From a virus (Duplodnaviria; Heunggongvirae; Uroviricota; Caudoviricetes): a DNA stretch of 64,000 nt. Position numbers and translations under genes: made by a program. The stretch lies in IMG/VR virus record IMGVR_UViG_3300029288_000055, positions 96,001 to 160,000 of that record; one strand, written 5' to 3'. The notes beneath the pieces are model-generated. The model did not search any database. It had not been told where the DNA came from and saw only the letters and a program-made list of their open reading frames with translations. Positions 3,909 through 11,377 of this stretch are shown one piece after another (within the stretch, counting starts at the first letter, position 1; every line of letters starts with the position of its first letter).

Positions 3909-3944
3909 AAATTAAGGTCCGCAAATATTTGCGGACCTTAATTT
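3909..3944. repeat. 36-bp perfect palindrome, core GGTCCGCAAATATTTGCGGACC (copy 1 of 3)
   Basis: Direct reading; same core at 41244 and 42677. Confidence 0.9.
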
Positions 3945-3957
3945 ATAATATATTAAA

Positions 3958-5055
3958 TTACAAACTAAAATTTTTCTGTTTACGTGCTTTATTTCTAAGT
4001 TCACTTATCTGTCTGTATGCATTTGGATTAAACCTTTCCCTCTTAATGATGCTTACAAGATGATTAAATTCATTTTCAGTAAGAACCTGTCCAACATAAC
4101 CTTCAGTCTTAAGAACATAACTCTTTGGAGCAGTCCTTGATGTAGACTGACCTTCTGTATCAAGTTCAGCATCAAACTGAAGTTCAAGAACTTCTTGAAT
4201 CTTTTCATGAACGCTTGCAGTCATTCTTTCCTTTGTTTTCTTCAATGCTTTTTCAAGCAAATCAACAACGGTAGTACGATTATCCTTCTTAAGTTCTTCA
4301 TATGACTGAGTAAACTCATTCACAGAAGTCTTGTGCTGCAATTCACTTATGATTGCAAGTGAGCCATAACAGTCCCTGATCATCAAATCCCATACCTGTT
4401 CAGCATATGTGAATGAAGGAAATTTGTCTATTGCAACAATTTCACCATCAATCAATACGATAATACCGATAAGATTTTTTGGACGTTCAAAATGTGCAAT
4501 GAACTGTTCAAGTTTCTTGTCATACTTGTTAAAATAAACATCAAGATAGTTACCTGCACCTGAATTAGTATCTCTACCTAATTTTTCAATTGCAGGATAA
4601 ATTCTTGAATATGAATTTGGCTTTCCGATTGAATCAAAAAGCATTTCACGCATTGAAACAGGAATCATTCTGAACTCCTGAGTACCACGGAAATAACCGC
4701 CCTGACTACCCTGAACACAACCTGCATCATGGTAAGTTACATTTGCCTTTGGAGAAACATAACCAGCTTTAATCATGCCGTGATTCTGGGCAACCTGCTT
4801 AGTAATAACAGCCATTTGTGTAGGAAGAATAACTTCCTTATTTTCGTTATTAGAAAAGCTGATTTGACCATATTGTGAGTTACTTGATGTCAATGATGTC
4901 AATGGATTCGCAAAACGATCATCCATTGAATATTCAACATCAGTTGTAAGGCAAACAACTTGCATATTTAATATGCTTTGTACCACAATATTACCATCTT
5001 TGTCTTTGACAGGACGGCAACCTTTTAACATTTCTGATAAATCTTTTGTATTCAT
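3958..5055 (-). CDS. ARPP-1/DUF6569-like protein
   Basis: 365 aa; N-terminal AQNH...GCVQ motif and LIGIIVLIDGEIVAIDKF strand resemble ARPP-1 family pattern (recognition only). Confidence 0.5.
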   Translation of the reverse strand: MNTKDLSEMLKGCRPVKDKDGNIVVQSILNMQVVCLTTDVEYSMDDRFANPLTSLTSSNSQYGQISFSNNENKEVILPTQMAVITKQVAQNHGMIKAGYVSPKANVTYHDAGCVQGSQGGYFRGTQEFRMIPVSMREMLFDSIGKPNSYSRIYPAIEKLGRDTNSGAGNYLDVYFNKYDKKLEQFIAHFERPKNLIGIIVLIDGEIVAIDKFPSFTYAEQVWDLMIRDCYGSLAIISELQHKTSVNEFTQSYEELKKDNRTTVVDLLEKALKKTKERMTASVHEKIQEVLELQFDAELDTEGQSTSRTAPKSYVLKTEGYVGQVLTENEFNHLVSIIKRERFNPNAYRQISELRNKARKQKNFSL

Positions 5056-5066
5056 GGTATAAATAT

Positions 5067-6707
5067 TTAAGCGTTAATACTAATTTTTTTTGTTCTCTTA
5101 ACAGGTGCTGCTTCAAGAGCAAGAACCTGATTTTCTAACCAACGTTTTGTGTCGATTTCAAGTAATCTTGCATTGATCTGTGTTTGAATTGCAACAGGAT
5201 TGTTAATCGCCATTGTAACCACTCCAGCACCTAATGCTCTTACATTACCACCTGTTTCAGCACCAGTGATTGGTGAAATCTGGAAGATAGGTATTACACT
5301 ACCAGATTCGGCTTTCCAGATTTGAATAACTTCGTTAGTCATACCATCGTAAGCATTTTCGTAACCATCAGTTATAATAAAAATTGCATCGTATGGTTTT
5401 TCTGGACGTTCTTCCTTCAAAAGTTCAATGAATGAACTTGCAAGATCACTTGCGAAACCTTTAGTATCTACTCTATTAGATTCATTTGCCGAAGCCATAA
5501 GAACCAATGAAGTAAAATCAGCGATTGCCCGTGGAGTATTCTTTGATTCTAACTTATTACCAGTCATCGACACACTGTCGTCAACTACAATACCAATATT
5601 CTGATAAAAGAAATTATTAATTTTCTTCTTTAGAGCAAGTTTTACAATTGCAGACCTAATTTCCTCAGTAAAAATAGTTTCATAACCAGTCTTGTAAAGT
5701 GCCATGAAGTCAGTTGCTTTTTCAAGTTCAACGTGTTTTTCAACGCCTAACTTTGCAGTTGACTTAGTTTGACGTACTTGCTGGTTTACAGAAGTAACTT
5801 CAACTGTTGATCTGATCATAGCCTTTGTAGCTTCTTTCTGAAGATCAGTTGACCACATAGTATGATACTGTGGGTGCTTTACAGATGAAATTAACCCAAG
5901 CAAAACTTCTTCTGGAACACTTTTAATACCCCTGATATCAACCTTTGCCTTCTGGTATTCACTCAAAAGAGGAAATTCGAAGAAATCAACATCATTATCC
6001 TTTTTAAATAAAAACAATAACAATTTGAATGCCTTTGTTGCATCACCATTAAAATATCTTACAATACATTCATTAACAATTTTAGCTTCTTTTTCGCTAT
6101 AAACGTTATTGAAAAGAATAGTATTATTGATAGCAACCTGCTTTTGTGCAATTGAAAGCAATATAGAAGTTTTTTTCAAACCATATACATGCTTCAATAC
6201 TTGTGCAATCTTATTACGATATTTCACTGCATAGAATTCAATATTAGGCTGACCCCAAATAAAGCCAAGCATAATTTTTCTTGATCTTTCGTTATTGATT
6301 TTCTTGTTTTTCAATTCAACGAAAAGACGAAGAACATATGGAAGACCGTTTTCAGTATAAAGATTACTTAATGCAGAAAGCACGGCTTTATCACTGATGC
6401 CATTATCATACCAGTCGATTGGGTTAACAATATTACATGCTCCGCCCTTTAAAGTCTGCTTAAATTCATTAAGCAACACTTCTGATACGAATTGACCAGT
6501 TGCTCCTTTCTGGGAAGCAATAATCAATGGAAGTTCCTTTGAAAGTTTATACAGTTTATCGATTTGAGTCTGTATAGCCTTCATCTGTTCGTCTCTGCTG
6601 TGGTAGTAAGTTGCTGAACTTTTGCTACCTGAAGCAATTGTTAAACCGTCAATTAATGACTGCTTAACTGCTGGAAGTGCCTTCTGTGTTAATACCAAAT
6701 TTTCCAT
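5067..6707 (-). CDS. Helical N-terminus + vWA (MIDAS) protein, TROVE/Ro60-like architecture
   Basis: C-terminal vWA motifs IVVDDSVSM (DxSxS) and IFIITDGYEN after ~370 aa helical region; start moved to MENLVL (6707) because a promoter motif lies at 6742-6772. Confidence 0.6.
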   Translation of the reverse strand: MENLVLTQKALPAVKQSLIDGLTIASGSKSSATYYHSRDEQMKAIQTQIDKLYKLSKELPLIIASQKGATGQFVSEVLLNEFKQTLKGGACNIVNPIDWYDNGISDKAVLSALSNLYTENGLPYVLRLFVELKNKKINNERSRKIMLGFIWGQPNIEFYAVKYRNKIAQVLKHVYGLKKTSILLSIAQKQVAINNTILFNNVYSEKEAKIVNECIVRYFNGDATKAFKLLLFLFKKDNDVDFFEFPLLSEYQKAKVDIRGIKSVPEEVLLGLISSVKHPQYHTMWSTDLQKEATKAMIRSTVEVTSVNQQVRQTKSTAKLGVEKHVELEKATDFMALYKTGYETIFTEEIRSAIVKLALKKKINNFFYQNIGIVVDDSVSMTGNKLESKNTPRAIADFTSLVLMASANESNRVDTKGFASDLASSFIELLKEERPEKPYDAIFIITDGYENAYDGMTNEVIQIWKAESGSVIPIFQISPITGAETGGNVRALGAGVVTMAINNPVAIQTQINARLLEIDTKRWLENQVLALEAAPVKRTKKISINA

Positions 6708-6772: not shown

Positions 6773-6789
6773 ATAATATAAAAAACACA

Positions 6790-6840
6790 AAAAAAATGGG
6801 TGAGTTAACGCATTTCTACGTTAAGTCCCCACCCATTTTC
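6790..6840 (-). terminator. Terminator closing the ncRNA array
   Basis: AAAATGGGTG..TTAACG-loop-CGTTAA..CACCCATTTT long hairpin followed by T tract on minus strand. Confidence 0.65.
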
Positions 6841-6868
6841 CTAAGAAAAACAAACACTTCTCATAATT

Positions 6869-6964
6869 GAGAAGAAGTTTAGTTGTAATTTGGTAAGTTT
6901 GTCCCGTCTCTCAATGGACGGGATTACATGTTTCAATCTACTGTATTCACAACAAGTTCTTCTT
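6869..6964 (-). ncRNA. Array unit A: conserved stem module + GC hairpin cargo
   Basis: AGAAGAAC-TTGTTGTGAA-TACAGTA...TCCCGTC/GACGGGA hairpin...TTACAAC-TAAAC-TTCTTCT. Confidence 0.65.
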
Positions 6965-7223
6965 TGTAATTGTTGCTTCATAGTGGCACGCTCCGAAGAA
7001 CCCGACACTTCAACACAACAATTATTTCTTTTTTTAAAAAACACTACACTTCTGCAGTGAAAAACCATTCTTAACCTGCGAATATATCAACATTCGCTCA
7101 AATGTTAGGCGGTATGCCCCGTTTTTATTTAAAAACACTGATACCAACAGCCAAAAACTTTAAACGGGTTGGGTTTAATGTGTCCGATTAGCGTTGACAC
7201 GACCCATTTCCGTTTTAAAACTT

Positions 7224-7366
7224 AGGGAACAATTTAAAAGTATTTTTTGTTTTTGATTGCAAGTTTAGCCGACTTGTGACTTAACCGCTTGTCTAATTCT
7301 CCAATTGTGGCGGAGGATGATGGATTCGAACCACCGAAATTACTATAAACACTTTTCGTTTTCCCT
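7224..7366 (-). ncRNA. Array unit B: Y-RNA/YrlA-like RNA with circularly permuted tRNA-Ser(GCU)
   Basis: GGGAAAAC-GAAAAGTGTT-TATAGTA, then T arm GGTGG-TTCGAAT-CCATC, ATCCTCC-GCCA, linker, GGAGAAT, D arm, anticodon arm CAAGT-CGGCTAA-ACTTG, then AATACTTTT-AAAT-TGTTCCC. Confidence 0.8.
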
Positions 7367-7401
7367 TTGTATTTTTAAAGAACACTTTTAATAAAATTAA
7401 G

Positions 7402-7527
7402 ATGGCGCAGACCTATTGTGGCTGTCTTTACTCTCTCATTGCATGAGAACCATTCAATTACGGCTGACTTAACAACTACTACCCAAGTTCTTGTTCTCAA
7501 ACTGTACAGTAATCAAACAATCGCCAT
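7402..7527 (-). ncRNA. Array unit C (divergent structured RNA)
   Basis: Closing stem ATGGCG/CGCCAT, internal TGAGAAC/GTTCTCA pairing, TACAGT present but upstream AAC missing. Confidence 0.35.
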
Positions 7528-7560
7528 TTGGCATTTCGTAATCTTAATTTCAAATAACTT

Positions 7561-7640
7561 TGAAGAAATTCGTTGGTCTTGTTTTAGTTTTACTCTGATT
7601 TCAAGTCAAATTGTTTACTGTAAAAACCACCAGTTCTTCA
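7561..7640 (-). ncRNA. Array unit D: conserved module + isolated Ser(UGA)-like anticodon stem-loop
   Basis: TGAAGAAC-TGGTGGTTTT-TACAGTA...TTTGA-CTTGAAA-TCAGA...AAGACCAACG-AAT-TTCTTCA. Confidence 0.7.
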
Positions 7641-7645
7641 TTTTG

Positions 7646-7720
7646 TAGCGGAGGGTGGATTCGAACACACCGATCTTAACGTTATGAGCGTCACGAGTTA
7701 ACCACTGCTACTACCCCGCA
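7646..7720 (-). tRNA. tRNA-Met(CAT), initiator-like, slightly degenerate
   Basis: TGCGGGG..CTCCGCT-A acceptor with 1:72 mismatch, TGACG-CTCATAA-CGTTA anticodon arm, TTCGAAT T loop; irregular D and T stems, no encoded CCA. Confidence 0.75.
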
Positions 7721-7761
7721 ATGTTATGAGATTTTGTGAAAATCCCATGAAAACTATAAGG

Positions 7762-7888
7762 AAAATGGACAGTTTGTTTGTTATTTTTGTTTACAATGAT
7801 GGGGTTTCGACACCCCGACCTTCTGCTTTAAATGCGGACGCTCTACACTGAGCTAATTATTTACTGTAATAACAAACCGTTTCCATTT
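7762..7888 (-). ncRNA. Array unit E: conserved module enclosing a degenerate tRNA cloverleaf
   Basis: TGGAAAC-GGTTTGTTAT-TACAGTA, GCTC/GAGC D arm, TCCGC-ATTTAAA-GCAGA, AGGTC, GGGG-TGTCGAAA-CCCC, then ATAACAAAC-AAAC-TGTCCA. Confidence 0.75.
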
Positions 7889-7893
7889 CTTTG

Positions 7894-8029
7894 TGGGGAA
7901 GGGTGAGACTGAGTCACCATACAACTGTTTTACTGACAATTTGCTGTACCTTTTTCTGTAAACACAATCAGTTCTCCAGTAAGGAGTATTACGATTATAT
8001 TTTTTGAATTTTTATTCGCATACTTCCCC
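7894..8029 (-). ncRNA. Array unit F: acceptor/T-arm scaffold with the module inserted inside-out
   Basis: GGGGAAG...GGTGA-CTCAGTC-TCACC-CTTCCCC-A; internal ATATAATCG-TAAT-ACTCC-loop-GGAG-AAC-TGATTGTGTT-TACAGAA. Confidence 0.65.
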
Positions 8030-8074
8030 ATTTTAAATTTCATTTTTACAAAGAACATTTGTCCTAAGACGATG

Positions 8075-8105
8075 CAAACATAATACACATTTTTTTAATG
8101 TGCAA
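8075..8105 (-). promoter_or_regulatory. Bacteroidota housekeeping promoter for the ncRNA array
   Basis: TTG-N20-TATGTTTG matching -33/-7 consensus TTG/TAnnTTTG; boxA-like TGTTCTTTG follows at 8049-8057. Confidence 0.7.
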
Positions 8106-8209: not shown

Positions 8210-11200
8210 TTATTTTTTCTTCATTAAATTTTGATGAATTTCTGCTAATTTTAATCTTTCATGCATCGTCATATGCTCAGTAGATGGTTCATCAGGATTT
8301 TTCATATTTTTTTCTGCTTCTTCAATTTCTTCTCTACTTAAAATAATTTTTTCTTTTGGGGGTGAATATGATCGATTATTTTTATTTATTTCGTCATATT
8401 TTTGTACAATTCCTTCAGCAATTATTTCCTTTGGCAATGAAATATCTTCCAATTTTATTTCAATTTCATTCGTTTTTACAGTTTCAGTCTTTCCACTCCA
8501 ATCCAATAAATCATCTTTTTTTGGTGGATTTGTAATATTATTTACACCCTCATTTACAGCATCAGTTACAGCATCATTTTCATCTATTTCAATTAATCCA
8601 TCATCATTTTCAGTTTCATTTAATGCTTCTTTGGCAATATCATATATTTGTTTTATTTCATTTATAGATTGATCAGTTCTGGTTGTTTCAATATGCATAT
8701 TTATAATTTCAGCATCTTTTTTTTCAGTAATTTTTTCAAATTGTTTTAAATCAACAGGGTCATCATTAATTGTTGGGTCATTTACCATTTCAGTTAAACT
8801 TATCACACGCTTATTTATTGCAGCATGCATATCAATATCAGATGACTTTTTTATTATTTCATTTGCAGTATTGTTTATTTCATTAACATCTTCGGAATCA
8901 TGATGCTTCAGTATTGTTCTTACAGGATATCTTTTATCTTCAATTATAATTTGCATTGTATCATTATTAAAAATACAGTCAGTAAATGTTTGTCCATCTT
9001 GTGCGAATCTTGCTTTAATAATACGTATACTTGCAAGATTTGCTTCTTTTTGATCTGCAGTCTTTGCAACACTCATAAAAAAATGTGCTTTTTGTACTCT
9101 TTTAATGCTTCCACCAGATTGATATGCTTCCACATATTCCGCATTAAAACCACTACGATTGGTTTGTATTGCTGTCCATGCAGGTATATCAAAATCAGCA
9201 GCCAATGCTTCAAAAGATTTTATTATTACAAGTTCAGCTTCGTTTCTGTCTGGTGTTTTTTTATGTGATTCAAGACAATCCAAATAATCAAGAACTAATA
9301 TATCAAATTTATATCCATACTTTTTTTGATGTCTAAGCATCCAAGAACGAATATCCATCATTGTGGTATTCTCCTGACTAAATCTTTTTATAATAAGGTT
9401 ACCCTTACCTACCATTTCACTGGCTTTCTTATATGTAAGTTGTTTTACCAATTCACAATTTTCGTCAGTTTTACTTAATGCTATATTTGACCATATAGTA
9501 AAATGTTTACGTTGAATCTGTTCTTTAGTATCTTCAAATATTATCTGGCAAACATTTTTACATTCATCATATGCAGTATTTGCAATCTTGGTTAAAAGAG
9601 TTGTATTATGTGTTAAAATATAATCATCGATAACATATAAATGATTTTTATTTTCAACATATATACATTGTGCTTCTTCTTCATGAGAATATGAAATATT
9701 TGATATATATTTATTGAATTTATATTTATCTCTATATACAACACGATCTTGCTTTCTTTTTAAAAAAAATGGTTTTATTTCATCATTTAAAAATGATATT
9801 GTTAAAATATAAGATTTTTGTCCAATTTTAATTTCATTCTTATATTTATATTTTGGTAATTTTTCACACATACGACAAAATCCACCTAATGATAACACTA
9901 ATTCTCTAACATCATATACTAAATCTTTTGATGCCGTGGTAAATTGTATTCTTCCAGATTTTGAAGTGTATCCATCAGTATCCATCAATCCTTGTAACAA
10001 CGATATTCTATCCTCAATTGATGAATATAAATATTCTTTTGGAATAAATTTTTTGTTAGAAGTAACATTAAGTTTCAAATCTTTAATTAATTCATATAAT
10101 TTATTTTTTTTACCTTTTTTGCCAGTTATCGAATAGGATATAGTCTTAGAAATTTGTTTTAATGATAAATCTTCATATTGATCATTAATGATATTATTAA
10201 TACGATTAATAATATCATCATCAATTGATGTAAATCTTATTGAAGATTGAGTTAAACCACCATCACCAATTAATGCACCTAATAAATATGAGTTTATTAA
10301 TAATTCTTTTTTATTAAATTCTACGGCTTTAACAATTGGTATTCTATAATTTAATTTTTTATGATTTTTATTATAAATCACATAATTTTTAATTAATTCT
10401 TTTGTTGTAATTGGATTATATGAAAAATCGGGTGTTTTTATATGTTTTGGTTTACCATCAATATAATGTGTAGTATTTGCAGTACGTTGATTTAAAGAAT
10501 TGACTGACCATATGTGTTCTTCATCACAATATGCTGTCGTTTGGTCGTTAAATTCTATTTTATATATTGGTCTCTTGCCTTGTGGATAAACGCCCAATAC
10601 TTTTGTTGGTCTACCATCACTGCCTACAACCAAATCATTTAATTTAACATCACCCATTTTAATCCAACCTTCAGGAGTTAATAAATTAGCTGATAACGGT
10701 AAGCTCTTACCAACACCTGAAGGAGTTAATATAACACCAATTTCACCTTTTCCTAAACCACCACCTGTAAGAGTATCAATTACACCAACGCCAGTAGCTA
10801 TTGTTTGACGAAACTCTTTTCTTAATGCATGATCAATATTATCAAATACACTTATGCCATAATCTTCTTCATCGCCAATATGTTGAATTTTATGAAATTT
10901 TTCTTCAATTGAAGCAATTGTAGTTTTTTTTCTAATATCACCATTTTTTGTCGATGTAATAATAAACTCTCCAGTCTTTCGATACTCCTGTTGTTTAATA
11001 AAATTGGTTGTTTCAGTTCTAATTACATCGCCATCATGCAATATTTGTTTATTAAGAACTCTTTCATTCCACATTTCGATTCGCTTAATTACAGCAAATA
11101 AAGATTCTTCCTCAATAATATTATTGGGAGTTTTATAAGTATTAATTGCCTGTAATATGCTTTGATTCTGAAGATTTGGAACTTTTCCGTGTGCTTTATA

Positions 11201-11377
11201 GAATTCAAGTATTATAATAAAAAGTCTTTTAAGATTTGGGTCATCAAAATATTCAACTGCTAAATTTGGAATTGTTTTTTCTGCAAATTCTGGTTCGACC
11301 AGTAATTGCCACATCAAACGTTGTTGAAATTCGGGACCTAAGTATGCAGTTAGTGTATATTCAGTATTTTCAGCCAT
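8210..11377 (-). CDS. dnaB: Replicative DnaB/gp41-like helicase with intein and acidic C-terminal extension
   Basis: Walker A PSGVGK|T split by intein, ILVLDYLD Walker B, AIQTNR, IIKARF. Confidence 0.9.
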   Translation of the reverse strand: MAENTEYTLTAYLGPEFQQRLMWQLLVEPEFAEKTIPNLAVEYFDDPNLKRLFIIILEFYKAHGKVPNLQNQSILQAINTYKTPNNIIEEESLFAVIKRIEMWNERVLNKQILHDGDVIRTETTNFIKQQEYRKTGEFIITSTKNGDIRKKTTIASIEEKFHKIQHIGDEEDYGISVFDNIDHALRKEFRQTIATGVGVIDTLTGGGLGKGEIGVILTPSGVGKSLPLSANLLTPEGWIKMGDVKLNDLVVGSDGRPTKVLGVYPQGKRPIYKIEFNDQTTAYCDEEHIWSVNSLNQRTANTTHYIDGKPKHIKTPDFSYNPITTKELIKNYVIYNKNHKKLNYRIPIVKAVEFNKKELLINSYLLGALIGDGGLTQSSIRFTSIDDDIINRINNIINDQYEDLSLKQISKTISYSITGKKGKKNKLYELIKDLKLNVTSNKKFIPKEYLYSSIEDRISLLQGLMDTDGYTSKSGRIQFTTASKDLVYDVRELVLSLGGFCRMCEKLPKYKYKNEIKIGQKSYILTISFLNDEIKPFFLKRKQDRVVYRDKYKFNKYISNISYSHEEEAQCIYVENKNHLYVIDDYILTHNTTLLTKIANTAYDECKNVCQIIFEDTKEQIQRKHFTIWSNIALSKTDENCELVKQLTYKKASEMVGKGNLIIKRFSQENTTMMDIRSWMLRHQKKYGYKFDILVLDYLDCLESHKKTPDRNEAELVIIKSFEALAADFDIPAWTAIQTNRSGFNAEYVEAYQSGGSIKRVQKAHFFMSVAKTADQKEANLASIRIIKARFAQDGQTFTDCIFNNDTMQIIIEDKRYPVRTILKHHDSEDVNEINNTANEIIKKSSDIDMHAAINKRVISLTEMVNDPTINDDPVDLKQFEKITEKKDAEIINMHIETTRTDQSINEIKQIYDIAKEALNETENDDGLIEIDENDAVTDAVNEGVNNITNPPKKDDLLDWSGKTETVKTNEIEIKLEDISLPKEIIAEGIVQKYDEINKNNRSYSPPKEKIILSREEIEEAEKNMKNPDEPSTEHMTMHERLKLAEIHQNLMKKK
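9605..10705 (-). mobile_element. Intein with LAGLIDADG endonuclease in helicase P-loop
   Basis: Starts SLPLSANLLTPEGWIKMGDVK, ends YILTHN before Thr; LLGALIGDG and LLQGLMDTDG motifs; 367 aa. Confidence 0.9.

What the first reader, a model, noticed from the sequence alone, without database searches (positions are those of the whole stretch)
6869..8005. Conserved fixed-spacing module RRARAAC-N10-TAYAGWA with covarying stem, in five units
Minus strand: A GAAGAAC-TTGTTGTGAA-TACAGTA; B GGAAAAC-GAAAAGTGTT-TATAGTA; D GAAGAAC-TGGTGGTTTT-TACAGTA; E TGGAAAC-GGTTTGTTAT-TACAGTA; F GGAGAAC-TGATTGTGTT-TACAGAA. The N10 differs each time but is always complemented by a partner strand (TTACAAC, AATACTTTT, AAGACCA, ATAACAAAC, ATATAATC) using G-U pairs. 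That strand is followed by an AAAY/TAAT bulge and a closing stem. Covariation with G-U pairs valid on the minus strand argues for RNA structure and a protein-binding or processing site.
Basis: seen in the sequence. Interest (0 to 1): 0.85.

Follow-up and report, generated by a model that had tools for sequence, protein, structure and literature searches.

The report
Phage Ro60-like protein's five partner RNAs
A 363-kb phage encodes five small RNAs that share one conserved protein-docking stem but carry tRNA look-alikes wired in different ways, just upstream of a very diverged Ro60-type RNA-binding ring and an enzyme-like partner; this looks like an undescribed, widespread branch of the known Ro60/Y-RNA machines.

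Summary
The motif is real. It is the 5' strand of a bulged RNA stem (a 'handle') shared by five small RNAs (F, E, D, B, A) in one minus-strand transcription unit (about 8080 to 6790) of a jumbo phage. In structure-blind alignments of homologues the stem covaries in all five types, and G-U beats A-C 137 to 14, which favours RNA over a DNA site. Three units carry tRNA mimics in different topologies; B has the YrlA order T-acceptor-D. The next gene (5067-6707) has no Pfam hit but folds like Ro60 (Z 18.2). It is followed by ARPP-1, which is predicted to dock on the ring's vWA face (0.67, best control 0.01). Handles lie upstream of this gene pair in 70 of 71 phage loci and 38 of 61 prokaryotic-genome loci. 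Best reading: Y-RNA-like tethers or gates for a divergent Ro60-ARPP particle acting in tRNA-related RNA repair or anti-defence. They are not YrlA members (no GNCGAAG motif, no Rfam hit). Corrections: unit E breaks the stated consensus, F's partner lies upstream, N10 is partly fixed, and the spacer is mostly 11 in bacteria. Expression and binding are untested. I found no paper on it; this scan noted the system before on other phages.

The parts
8073..8082 (-). Bacteroidota-type -7 promoter element (TAnnTTTG) heading the RNA array
   Evidence: the same element precedes the first unit in most homologous loci; the promoter type is from established knowledge
8050..8056 (-). boxA-like antitermination element (second copy 7377-7383, before unit B)
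   Evidence: recurs about 25 nt after the promoter and before B or F units in most loci; function inferred
7891..8029 (-). RNA unit F: tRNA body with free acceptor ends (8023-8029 with 7895-7901), anticodon arm 7923-7941, T arm 7902-7918; permuted handle (7983-8001 with 7954-7977) inserted in the D loop
   Evidence: 13 of 34 pairs with two-sided change, 0/500 shuffles; z -4.1
7764..7887 (-). RNA unit E: handle closing a tRNA-like D, anticodon and T-arm domain (7793-7862) in place of the acceptor end
   Evidence: Rfam tRNA 37.5 bits; z -3.9
7646..7717 (-). degenerate tRNA-Met(CAU)-like gene without handle; present at this place in most homologous arrays
   Evidence: 24.7 bits, below cut-off; ARAGORN none
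7561..7640 (-). RNA unit D: handle closing a short anticodon-arm-like hairpin (7594-7610)
7403..7526 (-). unit C: structured insert without the UACAG motif; shared only in part with L034 and L035
7224..7366 (-). RNA unit B: handle closing a circularly permuted tRNA: T arm 7319-7335, looped acceptor stem with encoded NCCA 7296-7318, D arm 7278-7294, anticodon arm 7260-7276
   Evidence: (NCCA in 17 of 28)
7030..7109 (-). conserved structured element X between B and A, no handle, no Rfam match
6870..6963 (-). RNA unit A: handle closing a G-C-rich hairpin (6902-6923) with a mostly GAGA-containing loop
   Evidence: z -3.4
6789..6839 (-). intrinsic-terminator-like hairpin with U run, ending the RNA array
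   Evidence: (z -6.1)
5067..6707 (-). 546-aa Ro60-fold protein: helical ring (about 1-360) plus vWA domain with MIDAS D376, S378, S380, D447; conserved basic patch R141, R143, K162, R164, K166, H173
   Evidence: pLDDT 93; Z 18.2, rmsd 4.2, 405 aligned to 1yvp
3958..5055 (-). 365-aa ARPP-1 protein (PF20208), invariant Q26, Q90, H92, C113; 11 nt downstream of the ring gene
   Evidence: (E 1.4e-14)
3909..3944 (-). terminator after the two-gene operon

Best explanation
The module is the docking stem of a family of Y-RNA-like small RNAs. The array is transcribed as one stable-RNA precursor and cut into RNAs of about 80-145 nt (inferred). In each, a 6-7 bp outer stem, a bulged C facing three unpaired nt, a 10-bp inner stem and an unpaired UACAG form one handle (structure shown by covariation) that binds the basic outer helices of the neighbouring Ro60-fold ring (inferred). 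The rest of each RNA is exchangeable cargo showing different faces of tRNA: free acceptor end (F), elbow plus anticodon arm (E), looped and cleavable acceptor (B), lone hairpins (D, A). As with Y RNAs, the RNA tethers tRNA-recognising enzymes to the ring and gates its cavity, while ARPP, docked on the vWA MIDAS face (predicted), is the built-in catalytic partner. Most likely role: handling damaged tRNA or other stable RNA during infection of a Bacteroidota host. I put about 0.75 on the handle being the ring's binding site, and about 0.4 on repair or surveillance, 0.3 on decoy, 0.3 on other for the downstream role.
For: Covariation above all 500 shuffles in each of five types, 87-93% of cells paired against 37-68% in slid controls; at least 37 WC-to-WC changes over 19 pairs on the protein tree; G-U 137 against A-C 14 cells, 24 against 8 columns, p 0.007. 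Handles in 70 of 71 phage loci, mostly 3-6 each. In distant prokaryotic loci (24-38% protein identity) 66 handle hits upstream on the sense strand in 38 of 61 loci, against 1 antisense, 3 further upstream and 7 downstream. Ring protein: the top 12 Foldseek rows are all Ro60, Rsr or phiLo Ro60; Z 18.2, 14.5 and 12.1; TM 0.57-0.64 to TROVE clusters. Unit B has the T-acceptor-D order of YrlA and often an encoded CCA, as processed in M. smegmatis YrlA (PMC4201824; 10.1101/312249). Anticodon triplets vary freely while arms are kept, so shape, not decoding, is selected. ARPP follows the gene in 58 of 58 phage loci with downstream DNA and 54 of 61 prokaryotic loci. Ring-ARPP model: score 0.67, best of 3 controls 0.01; this mark was reached by 58 of 80 solved complexes and 2 of 110 mismatched pairs; runs agree in at least 62% of contacts, partner pLDDT at least 85. 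The phage contig has over 50 tRNA genes and four RNA-ligase-family hits; in two myxobacteria a canonical Ro60 gene lies a few kb upstream in the same tRNA array.
Against: No binding or expression data. The handle lacks the GNCGAA(N)G motif of YrlA and the YrlA model finds nothing. The protein has no TROVE or vWA_Ro60 Pfam hit in 88 members, and profile comparison with true Rsr proteins aligns only the vWA part (46%). Most handle pairs are invariant within a type, so within-type covariation rests on 2-6 pairs, and related sequences can beat shuffles without structure. About 23 of 61 prokaryotic loci show no handle by my pattern (some are truncated). The bacterial scan required pairing, so it shows enrichment, not covariation.
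Confidence: 0.75

Rival explanations
1. The handle binds the ring, but the RNAs act mainly as decoys or baits for host anti-phage tRNA nucleases, with ARPP inactivating or trapping the enzyme or the cut RNA end.
For: Several tRNA faces are displayed in parallel and anticodon loops are highly variable; phiLo Ro60-Yrl dampens host PNPase (PMC12135203); ARPP was found in conflict systems and proposed to react with ribose via a conserved Cys (PMC9503650).
Against: The same system sits in tRNA arrays of bacterial genomes beside canonical Ro60; the protein is very conserved among the phages (59-89%), unlike typical arms-race proteins.
Confidence: 0.3
2. The bulged stem is a processing signal, cut by a host or phage nuclease to release the enclosed tRNA-like pieces.
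For: Long imperfect stems flank tRNA-like cores in E and B; the array has boxA-like elements as in stable-RNA operons.
Against: In F the handle is an internal hairpin in the D loop; D and A enclose only short hairpins; released pieces of E would lack an acceptor stem; strict linkage to a Ro-fold gene is not expected.
Confidence: 0.1
3. The handle is bound by ARPP or by a host protein, not by the Ro-fold ring.
For: ARPP is as tightly linked as the ring gene, so co-occurrence cannot separate the two.
Against: The ring has a conserved basic patch and its structural relatives bind bulged RNA stems; ARPP's predicted interface is with the vWA domain.
Confidence: 0.08
4. The motif is a double-stranded DNA site (operator, recombination or packaging repeat).
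For: Fixed spacing between two short conserved words looks like a bipartite DNA site.
Against: A DNA site needs no complementary partner 40-130 nt away, no compensatory changes and no G-U over A-C bias; the partner switches side in F.
Confidence: 0.02
5. The array is a cis-acting leader (tandem riboswitch or attenuator) controlling the ring-ARPP operon.
For: It lies directly 5' of the operon and ends in a terminator.
Against: Many homologues carry a 180-300 aa unrelated ORF between terminator and ring gene; a promoter-like element lies within 130 nt of the gene start in 45 of 71 loci; I saw no complementarity between the handle and the terminator.
Confidence: 0.05

Closest known systems
Bacterial and phage Ro60 (Rsr; PF05731 + PF25045) with YrlA/YrlB Y RNAs (Rfam RF02553; PMC4201824; 10.1101/312249)
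   Same: Small RNAs encoded within 4 kb on the same strand as a ring-plus-vWA protein; two-module build with a 5'/3' bulged stem plus cargo; unit B has the permuted T-acceptor-D tRNA mimic, often with a 7-bp acceptor stem and CCA.
   Different: Different handle sequence (AAC-N10/11-UACAG, no GNCGAAG); five RNAs in at least three tRNA topologies; B keeps an anticodon arm and the handle sits at the variable-loop junction; protein 11-14% identical, no TROVE hit; fixed partner ARPP instead of RtcB, RtcA or PNPase.
Thermus phage phiLo Ro60 with Yrl1 and Yrl2 (PDB 9KOP, 9L5Y; PMC12135203)
   Same: Divergent phage Ro60 with several RNAs upstream of the gene; stem-bulge-stem binding; structural match Z 14.5, rmsd 5.5, 402 aligned.
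   Different: phiLo RNAs use a CGAA motif and recruit host PNPase; the passages I read describe no tRNA-topology series and no ARPP.
Dictyostelium Class I and II RNAs (RF01414; PMC7919456; PMC3188802)
   Same: A terminal stem followed at once by an unpaired motif that contains UUACAG, then variable sequence.
   Different: Class I RNAs are 42-65 nt with a 5-6 bp stem and no second stem or tRNA cargo; the Rfam model gives no hit at this locus even at E 10; the known partner is the RRM protein Rnp1A. Resemblance only.
ARPP neighbourhoods (ARG, HIRAN, WYL, deacetylase; PMC9503650)
   Same: ARPP-1 domain with conserved Cys and Gln.
   Different: Linkage to a Ro60-fold protein and small RNAs is not among the contexts listed there.

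Membership tests
YrlA / bacterial Y RNA | Encoded within about 4 kb of a Ro60-type gene on the same strand | tested here: met
   Units end 160-1300 nt upstream of a Ro60-fold gene; met by fold, not by TROVE annotation
YrlA / bacterial Y RNA | GNCGAA(N0-1)G motif in the 5' strand of the Ro-binding stem | tested here: not met
   No such motif in 6781-8090; the handle consensus differs
YrlA / bacterial Y RNA | Long bulged stem joining 5' and 3' ends around a cargo module | tested here: met
   Units E, D, B, A; F has it permuted
YrlA / bacterial Y RNA | Permuted tRNA-like domain in the order T arm, acceptor stem-loop, D arm | tested here: met
   Unit B only; with an extra anticodon arm
YrlA / bacterial Y RNA | Match to Rfam RF02553 | tested here: not met
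   No hit in the genome at E 0.001, none at E 10 in the region, none in 10 related loci at gathering score
YrlA / bacterial Y RNA | Bound by the Ro60 protein in vivo; tRNA-type modifications | not testable with these tools
   Needs pull-down and modification mapping
Ro60 / Rsr proteins | Helical-repeat ring closed by a vWA domain | tested here: met
   AF2 model pLDDT 93; Z 18.2, rmsd 4.2, 405 aligned over residues 16-515 to 1yvp
Ro60 / Rsr proteins | MIDAS motif DxSxS with downstream acidic residue | tested here: met
   D376 and D447 invariant, S378 and S380 at least 90% in 138 sequences
Ro60 / Rsr proteins | Sequence match to Pfam TROVE PF05731 or vWA_Ro60 PF25045 | tested here: not met
   0 of 88 members; none in the genome; hhalign only 46% over the vWA part
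Functional tRNA genes | Intact cloverleaf with free acceptor end and conserved anticodon | tested here: not met
   ARAGORN finds none in the window; anticodon triplets vary among orthologues, 9 kinds in 21 E units
Dictyostelium Class I RNA | 42-65 nt with a single 5-6 bp terminal stem; match to RF01414 | tested here: not met
   Units are 80-145 nt with two stems; no RF01414 hit at the locus at E 10
Dictyostelium Class I RNA | Unpaired 11-12 nt motif right after the 5' stem strand | tested here: inconclusive
   Core UUACAG is shared and mostly unpaired but the flanking C positions are not kept; six shared nt can be chance

The most novel reading that the evidence does not exclude
A separate class of modular ribonucleoprotein: one Ro-fold ring with a permanently docked ARPP enzyme is re-targeted by interchangeable RNAs, each presenting a different face of tRNA to capture a different tRNA-acting enzyme (for example host anticodon nucleases), with a UACAG handle shared in ancestry with DUF2828-linked phage RNAs and the Class I RNAs of social amoebae.
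Probability: 0.12. Interest if true: 0.88.

Novelty: new variant of a known kind. Interest (0 to 1): 0.6.

Why it matters
The role of tRNA mimicry in bacterial Y RNAs and the identity of their effector are open questions (10.1101/312249 calls the effector unknown). Here one locus supplies a natural series: one handle, five cargos in at least three tRNA topologies, a Ro60-fold protein invisible to Pfam, and a fixed candidate effector (ARPP) predicted on the MIDAS face, whose role in Ro60 is described as unclear (PMC12135203). All parts are small and can be reconstituted. The family occurs in uncultured jumbo phages and in Planctomycetota, Myxococcota and Bacteroidota genomes, including cultured strains, and has no Rfam or Pfam model.

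Tried and rejected
Rfam at gathering score and at E 10: only tRNA-like hits; the snoRNA, HAR1A and sRNA rows are chance. Sequence searches of the ring protein in Pfam, PHROGs and PDB: nothing. Sequencing runs: no RNA holder listed; this is no evidence either way. Sigma-70 promoter scan: uninformative for this host type. RtcB: no match in the assembly. ARPP fold search: best Z 6.2 over one 45-residue helix pair, no meaningful match; no sequence match in PDB. My first partner search by longest duplex and a loose bacterial scan were dominated by chance pairings and were replaced by fixed-register searches with controls. A covariance model of unit B finds the other downstream-paired window units (E 6e-6 to 3e-4) but only weak bacterial hits. 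Minus against plus folding energies alone do not fix the strand; the G-U test does. Ideas from memory that unit A mimics the sarcin-ricin loop or a double T-loop, and that element X is a twister or pistol ribozyme, were dropped: loop variants and pair layout do not fit and Rfam gave no such hit. Literature searches for ARPP with TROVE, DUF2828 with Ro60, and phage Y RNAs found no description of this family; the library is incomplete. Only one annotated-collection phage record (uncultured, LR756500.1) has the gene.

Full report
Setting. The window is part of a 362,763-nt contig with a tail sheath gene, DnaB, RecA-like and gp32-like genes, over 50 tRNA genes and a tmRNA in a separate cluster at about 196-237 kb: a jumbo phage. 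The finding lies in a 1.5-kb non-coding gap on the minus strand between an intein-bearing DnaB gene (8210-11377) and a 546-aa ORF (5067-6707) that is followed after 11 nt by an ARPP-1 gene (3958-5055; PF20208, E 1.4e-14). A TAnnTTTG element, the -7 promoter type of Bacteroidota (own knowledge), heads the gap and suggests the host phylum (inference).

Observation. Four match the title pattern exactly, all within 1.04 kb on one strand, against 1.95 expected in 64 kb even with a mismatch allowed. Unit E does not fit the title consensus. From 71 phage loci encoding the 546-aa protein at 59-89% identity I collected 106 distinct handles. They share one register: a 6-7 bp outer stem, an invariant C opposite three unpaired nt, a 10-bp inner stem whose outer three pairs are loose, then UACAG-x-A, largely unpaired. 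Outer positions -5, -4 and -3 are paired in 106 of 106 handles while switching between G-C and A-U among types.

Is it RNA? Because that collection chose partners by pairing, I re-tested on MAFFT alignments made without structure, one per type. In every type the paired fraction (87-93%) and the covariation score exceeded all 500 shuffles, and slid registers fell to 37-68%. Mapped on a tree of the neighbouring protein, 19 handle pairs need at least 37 Watson-Crick to Watson-Crick changes, two of them 6 and 7 times (the alignments mix some paralogues, so this is approximate). G-U cells outnumber A-C cells 137 to 14, in 24 against 8 columns (p 0.007), which fixes the minus strand and argues against a DNA site. 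Caveat: most pairs never vary within a type, and relatedness can inflate shuffle tests.

Anatomy. The handle carries different cargo. F is a tRNA body with free acceptor ends, and its handle is circularly permuted and inserted in the D loop. E encloses D, anticodon and T arms in native order, with the handle replacing the acceptor end. B encloses T arm, a looped acceptor stem, D arm and anticodon arm; 17 of 28 copies encode NCCA right after the acceptor strand. D and A enclose single hairpins. Anticodon triplets vary freely among orthologues while stems and 7-nt loops persist, so these are shape mimics. The usual order is promoter, boxA-like element, F, E, tRNA-Met, D, boxA-like element, B, A, terminator; 70 of 71 loci have handles, the exception being truncated. 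Endonuclease or antirepressor-like ORFs are often inserted.

The neighbouring genes. The 546-aa protein has no Pfam, PHROG or PDB sequence hit, but its model (pLDDT 93) matches Ro60 proteins in the top 12 Foldseek rows and by VIA-align at Z 18.2 (rmsd 4.2, 405 residues; Xenopus Ro60), 14.5 (phiLo) and 12.1 (Deinococcus Rsr), above all vWA-only rows. Atlas searches agree. It keeps a MIDAS motif and a basic patch on helices 122-175. ARPP follows it in all 58 phage loci with downstream DNA and in 54 of 61 prokaryotic loci. A complex prediction places ARPP on the MIDAS face: score 0.67, best of 3 controls 0.01; the mark was reached by 58 of 80 solved complexes and 2 of 110 mismatched pairs; runs agree in at least 62% of contacts and partner pLDDT is at least 85. 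This supports binding but does not show it. No solved ARPP-like structure was found from which the model could have recalled it.

Reach. Relatives at 24-38% identity occur in genomes labelled Planctomycetota, Myxococcota, Bacteroidota and others. A stricter handle search found 66 hits within 1.5 kb upstream on the sense strand in 38 of 61 loci, against 1 antisense, 3 further upstream and 7 downstream; the spacer there is mostly 11. Cargo again includes native-order and permuted tRNA mimics, with a further topology that starts at the anticodon arm. Several loci lie in large tRNA arrays, one near a GOLLD RNA, and two myxobacteria have a canonical Ro60 gene a few kb upstream.

Mechanism. Shown: the stem, its strand, the cargo topologies, the Ro60 fold by prediction, and the linkage of RNA, ring and ARPP. 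Inferred: transcription and processing into separate RNAs, binding of the handle to the ring (about 0.75), and a tether-and-gate role as for Y RNAs (PMC4201824; 10.1101/312249). The downstream purpose is open: repair or surveillance of damaged tRNA (about 0.4; the contig has four RNA-ligase-family hits and no RtcB), decoy against tRNA nucleases (about 0.3), or other. ARPP was proposed to act on ribose through a conserved Cys (PMC9503650); C113 is invariant here.

Comparison and novelty. It works like Rsr with YrlA but is not a member: the GNCGAAG motif and the RF02553 match are absent, and the protein fails the TROVE profile. The UUACAG core resembles the Dictyostelium Class I motif (PMC3188802) but RF01414 does not hit. 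I found no paper on this RNA family or on the Ro-ARPP pair; a Listeria phage study guesses at Y RNAs near a distant Rsr-like gene (PMC12282133), and I did not test whether that is related. Earlier notes of this scan describe the same system on other phages; they are AI notes and not independent support, and my first reading was recorded before I saw them. Verdict: real, a new variant of a known kind, interest 0.6.

Noticed in passing
window 7030-7109 (-): Element X: two invariant blocks (12 and about 16 nt) around a variable hairpin, then a second covarying hairpin and a U/A tract; conserved in at least 40 loci, possible pseudoknot, no Rfam match. Could be a sixth RNA or a processing element.
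   Followed up: partly
window 7403-7526 (-): Unit C, a structured insert with a handle-like start but no UACAG, at the place where many homologues have a second F-type unit; only L034 and L035 share part of it.
   Followed up: partly
window 7646-7717 (-): A tRNA-Met(CAU)-like gene is kept inside nearly all arrays, far from the phage's main tRNA cluster; degenerate here. In L004, L005 and L018 a 254-aa ORF without Pfam hit sits between two such Met loops.
   Followed up: partly
L001:4090-4977, L005:4277-4984, L009:4160-4987, L002:2807-3235: The array and its 3' flank are frequent insertion sites for AntA/KilA-N, GIY-YIG/NUMOD and PD-(D/E)XK genes.
   Followed up: partly
L114:139-577 and 6302-6520: A GOLLD RNA and a group I intron flank the system in a Bacteroidales contig.
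   Followed up: no
L134:1378-3075, L135:1202-2794: Canonical Ro60 (TROVE + vWA_Ro60) genes a few kb upstream of the divergent gene in Minicystis and Haliangium tRNA arrays, with no YrlA hit at gathering score.
   Followed up: partly
window 8210-11377 (-): DnaB-like helicase interrupted by an intein with a LAGLIDADG domain, plus a long acidic C-terminal tail.
   Followed up: no
G000:C1 195944-237385: Phage tRNA cluster with many doubled isoacceptors, several over-long calls (81-96 nt), a CUA-anticodon tRNA and a tmRNA.
   Followed up: no
G000: The 1.27-Mb assembly holds the 363-kb phage contig together with 37 contigs of mostly higher G+C; the phage may be mis-binned, so the assembly's taxon need not be the host.
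   Followed up: no
L133 (LR756500.1) about 900-2500: A 462-kb uncultured phage with a 26% identical ring protein also has four handle-like motifs upstream, at least two with tRNA-like cargo.
   Followed up: partly
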